Source of the DNA: Trypanosoma brucei
Taxonomy: Eukaryota
Direction: 5' to 3'
NCBI GenBank assembly: GCA_000002445.1
Contig: CP000070.1
Coordinates: 1,888,001 to 1,952,000 of the forward strand
DNA length: 64,000 bases
The notes beneath the pieces were generated by a model. That model searched no databases. It worked only from the letters and a program-made list of their open reading frames with translations, and was not told the DNA's origin. Position numbers and translations under genes: made by a program. Positions 7,981-9,700 of the stretch are shown here, one piece after another. Every line of letters begins with the position of its first letter. The first letter of the stretch is position 1.

Positions 7981-9264
7981 TTAGTACACCATCACGAGTT
8001 GCCAGCAGCTTTTGCGGCAAGCCAGCCCCGGCACCGCCGGTACGATCTTACGACGCCTTTTGGCGGAACACTTGCACAGCAGGAGGACCAAATAGAGCGT
8101 ACGGTCGGGTGAGTTCCCAATTACGCGGGAAATCGTTCCGAGTGATTCCTCCCACGTTGCCCCAAGGTTGCTAGATTCGAACACCTTGCGGAACCCACCT
8201 TCTACGTTAACGCCAGAAGTGTCTGTCCGCGCGCTCATCAGCAGTTTCCCATTCCACTCAGTAAGAGAAGCTTCCGATGTGAGAAGCGCCGTTTCACCAC
8301 GGGCAAAATGCCAACTCACACCATCGTCAACAGAGTACATAACCATGCTTACAACGGCATTGTCTTCATTCCTCGCCTGCACCGGAAACAATATTGTACC
8401 GTTCAATGTTACAACGCCGTTACCAGCTCCTCCAATGAACTGCGTGCCCTTGCTTCCTGCAACAGTGAAGTCGTAGAGGGGTTTCAGTGGTGTCTTTGTC
8501 CAAGAGATCCGCACATCACTGGTTTTACCGTCGGCACCCTTAGTCACTACACCCTTGTACATGAAAGGTTCCCAATCCGCTATACCCGCTGCGTTGTTTT
8601 CGTTGTGCCAATACCCCTTCGTGACATTGTATCTTGCCACAAGCACAAAGACACTGTCCGCCTTAGCAACGACAGTAGGATCCACAACACGAGAGTATGT
8701 GGGATCCACGCGACCATTTTCAATGATGACCTCTGTTTTCCATGTTTTGCCCCCGTCCGCACTGTATTTAGCAACGGTGTCGGTGAAGAAGTAATCCGTG
8801 GAGGTAAGATACCGGGCATCACCAATACCCATCAGCACCCCATCAACCTCAACAAACGAAGGAATACGAAAGGAATGCACAGTGCGCTCTACCTTATCAC
8901 TACCCTCAATAGCAGATGAAAGTATCTTCGTTTTGCCGAGCGTTATGTACCCACCTGTCATTCGAGCGAACCATTCGCTACGCTTCTCAGACCCTCCCCA
9001 GGGACCTTTCTCTTCTTTGAACCATCTCTCCCATTCCTTATCATACTTATCCTTCCAATTGGGTCCATCCTGCCACCACCACACTTCACCATCCTTCTCG
9101 CTCAGCTTCTTTCTCAAAGCCCACGCACCGCCGGACAGAAATGCCTCACGCGTCGTCCCCTTGCCCGCAGCCTTGGAAGTCAGAGCGCAGCAGTGACAAA
9201 CTGCAGTGAAAATCAACAGCAGTCTCGAGATTGGCATGCGCATTTGTTGGTGGAGTTCCTCCAT
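7981..9264 (-). pseudogene. Truncated trans-sialidase/gp85-family 5' gene fragment. About 389 N-terminal codons are homologous to the gene at 28651-30966; the ORF then continues into unrelated sequence.
   Basis: The first ~370 aa are identical (one S/N difference) to the 771-aa protein at 28651..30966, including FRIP and the first Asp box. Nucleotide homology stops abruptly at 8098. Confidence 0.8.
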
Positions 9265-9700
9265 TCCTCCGACGGAGTGGATGTTTTGTGAGCAGAAACA
9301 GCTGATATGTCCGGATGCAGGCGGTAATCCCAGGACCTCGCACCTTACGCTGACGCAGCTTAGTATGATTGGCTTCTACGGCACGTCCACAACAGGATAA
9401 TGCACCGTTGTCTTGCAAAGGGAAGCACAAAAAAACGGACAAAATGGAAACAGCAATGAAAATGGAAATCAAAAATGCAACTAGCGTAGTGGTTGGGAAA
9501 GAAGTGCAATCTGCAAAGTTAGAGAAACGCACAGGAGAGGCGATTGCACCTTTCCTTCAAGAATACGATGTTGTGGAGTACCTGCGTGTAAAGCAGGATA
9601 CGGGTGCCAACTGTGATAGAGGTCATGACACCTGACTGCTCAACACTTATATCGCGAGGCAGTGGTACAAGTTCTTCTAATGCAAAGGGCAGTCTCTTGT
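8098..9700. repeat. Segmental duplication copy A (1603 bp), direct repeat of 29800-31402
   Basis: Direct comparison gives a constant offset of 21702 bp with only about 3 mismatches seen. Boundaries located at cgtacggtc and gcagtctc(t/c)tgt. Confidence 0.9.

What the first reader, a model, noticed from the sequence alone, without database searches (positions are those of the whole stretch)
8098..9700. Near-identical 1.6-kb duplication of the trans-sialidase 5' end, creating a truncated pseudogene 21.7 kb from the intact gene
8098-9700 and 29800-31402 differ at only about 3 positions. They span 436 bp of upstream region (including the putative splice-acceptor tract) plus the first ~389 codons of the trans-sialidase gene. 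Copy A ends abruptly in the middle of the CDS, so it is a 5' gene fragment with its processing signals intact. Such fragments are typical raw material for segmental gene conversion in the trans-sialidase superfamily and could be trans-spliced into a truncated mRNA. The near identity implies recent duplication or concerted evolution.
Basis: seen in the sequence. Interest (0 to 1): 0.55.

Follow-up and report, generated by a model that had tools for sequence, protein, structure and literature searches.

The report
Truncated duplicate of T. brucei trans-sialidase
The window holds a real 1.6-kb copy of the front half of the Trypanosoma brucei trans-sialidase gene, already annotated as Tb927.7.6830; it cannot be an active enzyme, and it is an old duplicate kept nearly identical to the intact gene by gene conversion.

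Summary
Window 8098-9700 and 29800-31402 are a 1603-bp direct repeat with 3 mismatches, and similarity stops abruptly at both ends. The gene is on the minus strand.

The window is T. b. brucei TREU927 chromosome 7, 1,888,001-1,952,000. Copy B is TbTS (Tb927.7.6850, 771 aa). Copy A is the annotated gene Tb927.7.6830, 'trans-sialidase, putative' (427 aa: 389 TS codons plus a 38-codon read-through tail).

Copy A keeps the polypyrimidine tract, the AG splice acceptor, the signal peptide, the FRIP motif and three Asp boxes. It lacks the third catalytic Arg, the Tyr nucleophile, the lectin domain and the GPI signal.

It is not an assembly artefact. The independently sequenced T. b. gambiense DAL972 genome has the same fragment with the same breakpoints.

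It is not a recent duplication. At 7 sites both 927 copies share one base and both gambiense copies share another. No site separates A from B across the subspecies. The three 927 mismatches all lie within 74 nt of the repeat ends. Both patterns indicate gene conversion.

Expression of the fragment itself is unproven, because published values come from sequence it shares with TbTS. Overall this is an ordinary, already annotated feature of low to moderate interest.

The parts
8098..9700 (-). Copy A of the 1603-bp repeat (436 nt upstream region plus TS codons 1-389)
   Evidence: 99.81 % identical to 29800-31402, with sharp boundaries. The same boundaries occur in DAL972 (L002 9565-11167).
29800..31402 (-). 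Copy B of the repeat, the 5' part of the intact TbTS locus
   Evidence: The flanks continue the TS ORF downstream.
7981..9264 (-). ORF of the fragment, Tb927.7.6830 (427 aa = 389 TS residues + 38-residue read-through tail + stop)
   Evidence: One search gives the translation. It is an exact match to XP_846303.1 / AAZ12744.1 'trans-sialidase, putative', TREU927. The locus tag and coordinates Tb927_07_v4:1895981-1897411 come from the Jensen 2014 supplement. Pfam BNR_3 covers only profile positions 1-225 of 308, and there is no TS_C domain.
7981..8097 (-). Copy-A-specific tail (LYLVLLLCKCSAKRRRKIVPAVPGLACRKSCWQLVMVY*). This is the only transcribed sequence that would distinguish a fragment mRNA or protein from TbTS, apart from the SNP at 8171.
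   Evidence: The sequence is unique within the window.
28651..30966 (-). Intact trans-sialidase TbTS, Tb927.7.6850 (771 aa)
   Evidence: 771/771 identical to XP_846305.1. Pfam BNR_3 1-308 plus TS_C. It aligns to T. rangeli and T. cruzi (trans-)sialidase structures at E about 1e-140.
9412..9505 (-). Polypyrimidine tract and AG trans-splice acceptor of copy A (AG = 9413-9412; first mRNA base 9411). The equivalent in copy B is AG 31115-31114.
   Evidence: Sequence read. The annotated 5' end of Tb927.7.6830 (chr7:1,897,411) is window 9411. The site lies inside the repeat, so its assignment to copy A is not independent of copy B.
12001..12525 (-). CEP44-like gene Tb927.7.6840, the gene immediately upstream of the fragment and in the same putative Pol II unit
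   Evidence: Pfam CEP44. Name from the Mugo & Clayton supplement. Transcription unit 6840->6830 from Kolev 2010 Table S14.
22941..23014 (+). tRNA-Lys(CTT) gene lying between TbTS and the CEP44/fragment transcription unit
   Evidence: Kolev Table S14 types the 6840->6830 unit as 'next to tRNA'.
1776..7159 (.). Perfect palindrome (2 x 2520 nt, 344-nt spacer) carrying tRNA-Ala, -Ser and -Asp in each arm. It begins 938 nt downstream of the fragment's truncation point.

Best explanation
Copy A is a partial, DNA-level duplicate of the 5' end of the T. brucei trans-sialidase gene TbTS. It is annotated as Tb927.7.6830.

Origin. A single event copied 1603 bp (436 nt of upstream region plus codons 1-389) from the TbTS locus into a site between the CEP44 gene and a tRNA-gene palindrome, about 40 kb from the chromosome-7 centromeric repeats. 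This happened in an ancestor of T. b. brucei and T. b. gambiense.

Maintenance. Since then the two copies have been repeatedly homogenised by gene conversion. That is why they differ at only 3 sites in TREU927.

Product. It would be a signal-peptide-bearing, incomplete beta-propeller. It lacks the third Arg of the arginine triad (R429), the Tyr nucleophile (Y457), the lectin-like domain and the GPI-anchor signal. It is therefore not a trans-sialidase and is functionally a pseudogene.

Shown versus inferred.
- Shown: the repeat and its junctions, its presence in a second subspecies, the pattern of concerted evolution, and the loss of catalytic and domain elements.
- Inferred: the one-step templated insertion mechanism, and that the fragment is transcribed from the CEP44 unit and trans-spliced at the copied acceptor.

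Practical effect. The first 1.17 kb of the TbTS coding sequence and the proximal 5' UTR map to two places, so expression values reported for Tb927.7.6830 largely mirror TbTS.
For: Repeat and breakpoints.

Identity of both ORFs with TREU927 proteins on the 2,205,233-bp chromosome. Locus tags and the coordinate offset of 1,888,000 were cross-checked on three genes.

Independent assembly:
- DAL972 was shotgun-sequenced with capillary reads and assembled with Phrap (PMC2854126).
- Its contig L002/L007 carries copy A with both A-type flanks and no Ns. Contig L003 carries copy B with both B-type flanks.
- 927 and gambiense differ by 0.6-1.6 % in the adjacent 1.6-kb blocks.

Concerted evolution:
- The four-sequence site patterns are 7 (927A=927B, different from gambA=gambB): 0: 0.
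- Paralogue divergence in 927 is 0.19 %. This is below every orthologous block (0.56-1.6 %) and below the genome-wide 1.16 % (PMC2854126).
- The three 927 mismatches lie 3, 40 and 73 nt from the repeat ends, and the central 1488 bp is identical. The chance of this is about 8e-4.

Loss of function:
- Pfam BNR_3 is truncated at profile position 225 of 308, and there is no TS_C domain.
- Alignment to T. rangeli sialidase 1wcs puts the RDR arginine and the NSxYSS tyrosine at TbTS residues 429 and 457, beyond residue 389.

DNA-level origin: 436 nt of non-coding upstream sequence was co-duplicated, there is no poly(A) or target-site duplication at the junctions, and there is no decayed 3' half.

Transcription context: Kolev 2010 Table S14 lists the unit 6840->6830 separately from 6850.
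Against: No read-level data were available.

The T. equiperdum OVI contig joins the copy-A upstream flank through the repeat to the rest of TbTS. Three Logan contigs run through the downstream repeat boundary without a break. Other strains may therefore carry a different arrangement, or these may be collapsed or RNA-derived assemblies.

In DAL972 the intact locus sits in the chromosome-11 record, and the chromosome-7 record has a 100-N gap at the matching place. The physical distance between the two gambiense copies is therefore not established.

The direction of conversion (A to B or B to A) cannot be determined.

No microhomology is visible at either junction, so the insertion mechanism stays speculative.

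There is no direct evidence for or against a stable fragment mRNA or protein.
Confidence: 0.8

Rival explanations
1. Assembly artefact: copy A is a collapsed or mis-joined duplicate of the TbTS locus and does not exist in the genome.
For: Short-read or scaffolded assemblies do mishandle this repeat. The T. equiperdum OVI contig switches flanks both at this repeat and at the 386-bp repeat, and contains 10-N joins. The DAL972 chromosome-7 record has a gap where the intact locus should be.
Against: The two copies differ at 3 sites, and each has unique flanks on both sides. TREU927 chromosome 7 was built by clone walking (PMC2854126). An independent capillary-read assembly of another subspecies contains the same two junctions in gap-free contigs, with its own SNPs.
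Confidence: 0.02
2. A very recent duplication with no gene conversion: the copies are near-identical simply because they are young.
For: Only 3 differences in 1603 bp in TREU927.
Against: Identical breakpoints and flanks occur in T. b. gambiense DAL972, so the event predates the divergence of these lineages. Seven sites carry subspecies-specific bases shared by both paralogues, and no site is paralogue-specific. A young duplication introgressed between lineages would leave donor-lineage alleles in copy A, which is not seen.
Confidence: 0.04
3. Copy A is the remnant of a larger tandem duplication of the whole 21.7-kb unit, and some strains still carry a longer or full-length second TS downstream of CEP44. 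The truncated copy in TREU927 and DAL972 would then be a derived deletion allele. This is compatible with conversion.
For: The OVI contig CZPT02000287 (22,372 nt, about one 21,702-nt unit; by extrapolating the collinearity it is bounded by tRNA-Lys at both ends) reads CEP44 - A-type upstream flank - repeat - rest of TS. Logan contig L010 starts exactly at the upstream repeat boundary (31402) but runs through the downstream boundary (29800). That means an in-branch with no out-branch.
Against: The OVI contig is scaffolded, contains N joins, and also switches flanks at another repeat, so it looks like a repeat-collapse path. The Logan pattern fits equally well if the runs are RNA-seq with an abundant TbTS mRNA and a rare fragment tail. 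The data type of those runs could not be found. No remnant of a TS 3' half exists next to copy A.
Confidence: 0.12
4. The fragment is a functional gene: a secreted truncated TS-like protein, or an mRNA that modulates TbTS expression.
For: - The ORF is intact and the same length (427 aa) in both subspecies.
- It has a signal peptide and copied splice signals.
- It is not in Kolev's list of ORFs without a transcript.
- Ribosome-profiling and RNA-seq tables give it values.
Against: - Those values track TbTS: the read-count ratio is 0.66-0.79 in all 12 samples, and translational efficiencies are similar. This is expected from multi-mapped reads.
- Kolev's abundance table groups the two genes.
- Kolev's Table S13 shows a poly(A) site for 6850 and no entry between Tb7.NT.85 and 6850. 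The stored file was cut, and CEP44 also has no entry.
- Only 6850 appears in the 3'-tag differential-expression lists.
- The propeller is incomplete and lacks R429 and Y457.
- A 38-codon tail surviving at about 1.5 % divergence carries no information about selection.
Confidence: 0.06

Closest known systems
TbTS (Tb927.7.6850), the GPI-anchored trans-sialidase of procyclic T. brucei; GH33 trypanosomal (trans-)sialidases such as T. cruzi TS (1MS3 series) and T. rangeli sialidase (1N1S, 1WCS)
   Same: Residues 1-389 match TbTS at 388 of 389 positions (S365 versus N365). The signal peptide, FRIP motif (R133), acid/base Asp (D157), E331, R346 and three Asp boxes are all present.
   Different: It stops in the fifth-to-sixth blade region of the propeller. 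It lacks R429, the Tyr457 nucleophile, the linker helix, the TS_C lectin-like domain and the GPI signal, and ends in 38 unrelated residues.
Non-processed (duplicated) partial pseudogenes kept similar to their parent by interlocus gene conversion
   Same: A DNA-level partial copy with the upstream non-coding flank. The paralogues within a genome are more alike than orthologues between genomes. The remaining differences lie at the repeat edges.
   Different: Here the truncated copy keeps an open reading frame and copied trans-splicing signals, and it sits in a polycistronic unit. It needs no promoter of its own to be transcribed.
T. cruzi trans-sialidase superfamily with its many pseudogenes and mosaic genes
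   Same: The same protein family, and a truncated copy lying near an intact gene.
   Different: T. cruzi has more than 1,400 TcS genes (PMC3198458 abstract). The homologue search returned only three other TREU927 paralogues, at 47-49 % identity. This is a single two-copy pair in a pericentromeric core region, not a diversifying repertoire.
Palindrome arm-to-arm gene conversion (as in primate Y-chromosome palindromes; from general knowledge)
   Same: The neighbouring tRNA palindrome shows the same behaviour as the TS repeat. Its arms are 100 % identical in 927 and 99.92 % in gambiense, but 2.6 % diverged between the subspecies.
   Different: The TS repeat is direct and 21.7 kb apart, not inverted and adjacent.

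Membership tests
Trypanosomal trans-sialidase/sialidase (GH33), as a functional enzyme | FRIP motif and Asp-box (SxDxGxTW) repeats | tested here: met
   FRIP at residue 132 and Asp boxes at 168, 311 and 364, all before residue 389. Pfam BNR and BNR_3 hits.
Trypanosomal trans-sialidase/sialidase (GH33), as a functional enzyme | Complete six-bladed beta-propeller catalytic domain | tested here: not met
   BNR_3 profile covered 1-225 of 308 in the fragment, against 1-308 in TbTS.
Trypanosomal trans-sialidase/sialidase (GH33), as a functional enzyme | Arginine triad and tyrosine nucleophile (TcTS R35/R245/R314, Y342; residue roles from established literature) | tested here: not met
   Alignment to 1wcs and motif positions: R133 and R346 are present. 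R429 (SRDRLQLW) and Y457 (NSAYSS) lie beyond the truncation at residue 389.
Trypanosomal trans-sialidase/sialidase (GH33), as a functional enzyme | C-terminal lectin-like domain (TS_C) and, for TbTS, a GPI-attachment signal | tested here: not met
   TS_C spans residues 527-728 in TbTS only. The fragment ends in 38 unrelated residues.
Non-processed partial gene duplicate (segmental duplication pseudogene) | Copy includes non-coding flank; no poly(A) tract or target-site duplication; sharp breakpoints | tested here: met
   436 nt of upstream sequence was co-duplicated. The junction sequences show no poly(A), no direct repeats and no microhomology.
Paralogue pair under gene conversion (concerted evolution) | Paralogues within a genome group together to the exclusion of orthologues, although the duplication is shared | tested here: met
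   The junctions are shared by 927 and DAL972. Informative sites are 7:0:0. Six of the seven 927 alleles are derived relative to the T. b. equiperdum IVM-t1 copy B.
Paralogue pair under gene conversion (concerted evolution) | Residual differences concentrated at the repeat edges | tested here: met
   In TREU927 the mismatches lie 3, 40 and 73 nt from the ends, P about 8e-4. This does not hold in DAL972, where 11 differences are spread along the repeat.
Assembly artefact (duplicated or collapsed repeat) | Junctions absent from independent sequence data | tested here: not met
   Both copy-A junctions are present in gap-free DAL972 contigs.
Expressed, trans-spliced truncated mRNA | Reads or tags unique to copy A (the junction at 8098/8097, the G allele at 8171, or a poly(A) site below 7981) | not testable with these tools
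   Published tables either group 6830 with 6850 or report values that track 6850. No raw reads were accessible.

The most novel reading that the evidence does not exclude
The pericentromeric arm of chromosome 7 is a local hotspot of homology-directed homogenisation. Three separate repeat pairs within 30 kb are at or near 100 % identity within TREU927 but as diverged as their surroundings between subspecies. They are the 1.6-kb TS repeat, the 2.5-kb tRNA palindrome arms and the 386-bp element. Under this reading the dead TS fragment is an active conversion partner. It can pass mutations into, or restore, the 5' half of the only highly active procyclic trans-sialidase gene. Strains may also differ in whether the second copy is truncated or full-length.
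Probability: 0.25. Interest if true: 0.45.

Novelty: already known. Interest (0 to 1): 0.22.

Why it matters
The main value is practical.

- The first 1.17 kb of the TbTS coding sequence and its proximal 5' UTR exist twice. Short-read RNA-seq, ribosome profiling, RNAi fragments, PCR primers and knockout arms aimed at the 5' half of TbTS also hit Tb927.7.6830. Expression values listed for that 'gene' are mostly TbTS signal.
- The annotation 'trans-sialidase, putative' overstates what the ORF can be.
- The locus is a clean, small example of interlocus gene conversion in the T. brucei core genome, outside the VSG system, next to a centromere and a tRNA palindrome.
- It shows how this repeat misleads assemblies. 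The T. equiperdum OVI contig is one example. Another may be the '29-kb trans-sialidase/ESAG insertion on chromosome 11' reported for T. b. gambiense.

Tried and rejected
- Exact-product look-ups of the two TREU927 proteins and of P0001 returned no contig, because TREU927 is not in that index. The DAL972, T. equiperdum and Logan members of the same protein cluster were used instead.
- A homologue search with the last 90 residues of the fragment, meant to find junction-bearing ORFs in other assemblies or transcriptomes, returned nothing. Even the known DAL972 and TREU927 entries were missed, so this is a tool limitation, not evidence.
- Synteny in T. congolense was tried to learn the ancestral upstream neighbour of TS. 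The TconTS1-like locus is flanked by ISG65/75 and other genes, with no CEP44, so it is uninformative.
- tblastn for a decayed TS 3' half next to copy A found none. The fragment is therefore not a degraded full-length copy in situ.
- No microhomology, target-site duplication or poly(A) was seen at either junction.
- The spliced-leader sequence is absent from the Logan contigs, so they cannot be shown to derive from mRNA.
- A literature search for the run accessions ERR79291xx gave no hits.
- Tb927.7.6830 is not mentioned in the main text of any paper in the library. It appears only in supplementary tables.
- I first read the OVI contig as a clean circular permutation of the 21.7-kb unit. I dropped this once its N-joins and a second flank switch at the 386-bp repeat were seen.
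Full report
**1. Observation**

Aligning the two stretches with 200-nt flanks and a word-11 self-BLAST of the window show a single direct repeat. It spans 8098-9700 and 29800-31402: 1603 bp, 99.81 % identical, ungapped, offset 21,702 bp. The + strand mismatches are 8171 C / 29873 T, 9660 C / 31362 T and 9697 T / 31399 C. Similarity ends abruptly on both sides. No weaker homology continues, and tblastn with full-length TbTS finds no decayed 3' half next to copy A.

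The gene lies on the minus strand. ATGs are at 9264 and 30966, so 436 nt of upstream sequence and 389 codons are shared. Copy B continues as a 771-codon ORF (28651-30966). Copy A reads through 38 unrelated codons to a stop at 7981.

**2. Identity of the locus**

- The 771-aa product is 771/771 identical to trans-sialidase XP_846305.1 of T. b. brucei TREU927.
- The 427-aa product is an exact match to XP_846303.1, 'trans-sialidase, putative', on the same 2,205,233-bp chromosome.
- Supplementary tables give Tb927.7.6830 = Tb927_07_v4:1895981-1897411(-) and Tb927.7.6850 (TbTS) = 1916651-1920893(-).
- The window is therefore chr7:1,888,001-1,952,000. This offset also reproduces the published poly(A) sites of 6850 and 6860.

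Gene order along the minus strand is as follows:
- a divergent strand-switch region;
- TbTS;
- tRNA-Lys (22941-23014);
- CEP44 (Tb927.7.6840, 12001-12525);
- the fragment (6830);
- a perfect tRNA palindrome (1776-7159);
- a 337-aa ORF at 189-1202, presumably Tb927.7.6820.

On the other side lie ESAG5-like Tb927.7.6860 (41788-43230), the 3.07-kb 29.5-bp AT-rich array (49030-52104) and the start of an SSU rRNA gene. The array matches the chromosome-7 centromeric repeat of Obado et al. 2007.

**3. Real or artefact**

- The copies differ at three sites, and each has unique flanks.
- TREU927 chromosome 7 was produced by clone walking (PMC2854126).
- T. b. gambiense DAL972 was shotgun-sequenced independently with capillary reads and assembled with Phrap. 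It has a 427-aa orthologue.
- Its contig is collinear with window 22246 to 1 at about 98.5 % identity, contains no Ns across the repeat, and has exactly the same two junctions.
- A second DAL972 contig carries the intact gene with B-type flanks on both sides.

Misassembly is therefore rejected.

**4. Age and mode of evolution**

The junctions are shared by both subspecies, so the duplication predates their divergence.

- Differences over the 1603 bp: A927 vs B927 = 3; Agamb vs Bgamb = 11; A927 vs Agamb = 10; B927 vs Bgamb = 18.
- At seven sites both 927 copies share one base and both gambiense copies share another. These are window-A coordinates 9605, 9511, 9296, 9239, 9217, 8707 and 8107.
- No site groups the A copies against the B copies.
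- For six of the seven sites, the T. b. equiperdum IVM-t1 B copy carries the gambiense base. The 927 alleles are therefore derived, yet they are present in both 927 paralogues.
- Orthologous divergence of the neighbouring 1.6-kb blocks is 0.56-1.6 %. The published genome-wide figure is 1.16 %. Both exceed the 0.19 % between the 927 paralogues.
- The three 927 mismatches lie 3, 40 and 73 nt from the repeat ends, and the central 1488 bp is identical (P about 8e-4). This is what conversion tracts needing flanking homology would produce.

The direction of transfer cannot be decided.

**5. What the fragment can and cannot be**

Retained:
- the polypyrimidine tract and an AG at 9413-9412;
- the annotated 5' end of 6830, which is window 9411, immediately after that AG;
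- the signal peptide, FRIP (R133), D157, E331, R346 and three Asp boxes.

Missing:
- R429 of the arginine triad and the Y457 nucleophile;
- the last quarter of the BNR_3 propeller profile (covered 1-225 of 308);
- the TS_C lectin-like domain and the hydrophobic C-terminal GPI signal.

The one coding difference, S365 in the fragment against N365 in TbTS-927, lies in the third Asp box. All the other sequences compared carry the fragment's base there except the T. equiperdum OVI contig, so the Asn is specific to the 927/OVI lineage. The product cannot be an active (trans-)sialidase.

**6. Expression**

- Kolev et al. 2010 place 6840->6830 in a putative Pol II unit that starts next to a tRNA gene. 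TbTS forms a separate single-gene unit starting from the divergent strand-switch region. Transcription through the fragment is therefore plausible.
- All published numbers I could find are confounded by the shared sequence.
- Kolev's abundance table lists 6830 together with 6850.
- Read counts for 6830 are 0.66-0.79 of those for 6850 in all 12 samples of one data set.
- Ribosome-profiling efficiencies are similar for the two.
- Kolev's Table S13 shows a poly(A) site for 6850 and no entry between Tb7.NT.85 and 6850. The stored file was cut, and CEP44 also lacks an entry.
- Only 6850 appears in the 3'-tag differential-expression lists.
- The two upstream SNPs lie 5' of the acceptor. Only the SNP at 8171 and the 117-nt tail can identify a fragment transcript.

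Trans-splicing of copy A is therefore an inference, not a result.

**7. Mechanism of origin (inferred)**

The non-coding flank was co-duplicated. Both junctions are novel. There is no poly(A), target-site duplication or microhomology. This points to a DNA-templated insertion of a 1.6-kb copy into the CEP44-tRNA interval, and not to retroposition.

The acceptor site lies 938 nt from a perfect 2.5-kb tRNA palindrome. The centre of that palindrome is an inverted copy of another sequence from the inter-repeat interval (21290-21675). This suggests break-prone DNA repaired from nearby templates, but I could not test it.

**8. Unresolved signals**

- The T. equiperdum OVI contig (22,372 nt) reads CEP44 - A-type flank - repeat - rest of TS. 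However, it contains N joins and also switches flanks at the 386-bp repeat. It most likely follows a collapsed-repeat path.
- Three Logan contigs carry full-length TS and cross the 29800 boundary without a break. One starts exactly at 31402, and another starts right after a site where the gambiense copies differ. Their alleles are A/B mosaics.
- This Logan pattern fits either RNA-derived assemblies with a rare fragment tail, or strains with a longer second copy. I could not establish the data type.
- In DAL972 the intact locus lies in FN554974 (chromosome 11). This matches the '29 kb indel ... [quoted passage not shown] 2010.
- That DAL972 segment is collinear with TREU927 chr7 window 41052 to 18652. 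It overlaps both edges of a 100-N gap in the DAL972 chromosome-7 record. It may belong on chromosome 7.

**9. Verdict**

The feature is real and correctly described. It is already annotated, though as 'trans-sialidase, putative' and not as a pseudogene, and transcriptome studies implicitly treat it as a duplicate of TbTS. What this analysis adds:
- the duplicate is old and homogenised by gene conversion;
- a residue-level account of why it cannot be an enzyme;
- a caution about published expression values.

Interest is low to moderate, and the kind of feature is already known.

Noticed in passing
window 1776-4295 and 4640-7159: A perfect palindrome: 2520-nt arms, 100 % complementary, with a 344-nt spacer. 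Each arm carries tRNA-Ala(AGC), tRNA-Ser(GCT) and tRNA-Asp(GTC). In DAL972 the arms are 99.92 % identical to each other but about 2.6 % diverged from the 927 arms. The arms therefore also evolve in concert.
   Followed up: partly
window 4291-4676 vs 21290-21675 (inverted); third copy 45972-46149: The palindrome spacer, plus 5 nt of one arm and about 37-46 nt of the other, is a 386-bp element. It is 100 % identical, in inverted orientation, to a sequence in the interval between the two TS copies. A third partial copy is 85 % identical. The nature of the element is unknown.
   Followed up: partly
window 49030-52104: A 3.07-kb tandem array of a 29.5-bp AT-rich unit (TRF period 59, 52 copies, strong GC skew). 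It matches the chromosome-7 centromere-associated repeat of Obado et al. 2007: 3.0 kb, 29 bp, 75 % AT, between Tb927.7.6860 and 6870. TbTS lies only about 18 kb from it.
   Followed up: yes
window 63181-64000: The start of a eukaryotic SSU rRNA gene on the + strand, cut off by the window end.
   Followed up: no
L003 (DAL972 FN554974.1:2196203-2218518) and L007 (FN554970.1): The intact gambiense TS locus sits in the chromosome-11 record, reported by Jackson et al. 2010 as a 29-kb gambiense insertion with an ESAG and a trans-sialidase. It is collinear with TREU927 chr7 window 41052 to 18652. It overlaps both edges of a 100-N gap in the DAL972 chromosome-7 record: 3.6 kb at 99.8 % and 178 bp at 98.9 %. 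This may be a scaffolding misplacement or a second haplotype.
   Followed up: partly
L005/L006 (T. equiperdum OVI CZPT02000287.1): This 22.4-kb contig joins the copy-A upstream flank through the repeat to the rest of TbTS. It contains 10-N joins and switches flanks at the 386-bp repeat. By extrapolation, both its ends fall at the tRNA-Lys gene. Its annotated 764-aa TS may therefore sit in a mis-joined context.
   Followed up: partly
L001, L009, L010 (Logan ERR7929163, ERR7929161, ERR7929156): The contig ends coincide with repeat features: L010 starts at window 31402 and L009 starts just after the variable site 31030. L001 diverges from the window after a CA-rich tract at 28047 into an unrelated gene. 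Alleles inside the repeat are mosaics of the A- and B-type bases seen in DAL972.
   Followed up: partly
window 47125-47355 vs 57560-57787: An inverted repeat of about 230 nt, 91 % identical, flanking the centromeric array region.
   Followed up: no
window 12541-28650: About 16 kb between CEP44 and TbTS has no convincing protein-coding ORF and only a tRNA-Lys gene. This is unusually gene-poor for the T. brucei core genome. It is consistent with the degenerate pericentromeric DNA described by Obado et al. 2007, but was not analysed.
   Followed up: no
window 29873 (codon 365 of TbTS): TREU927 TbTS has Asn365 (SNNLGATW) in its third Asp box. The fragment, both gambiense copies, T. b. equiperdum IVM-t1 and the three Logan contigs carry the base that encodes Ser. 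Only the T. equiperdum OVI contig shares the Asn allele with TbTS-927.
   Followed up: partly
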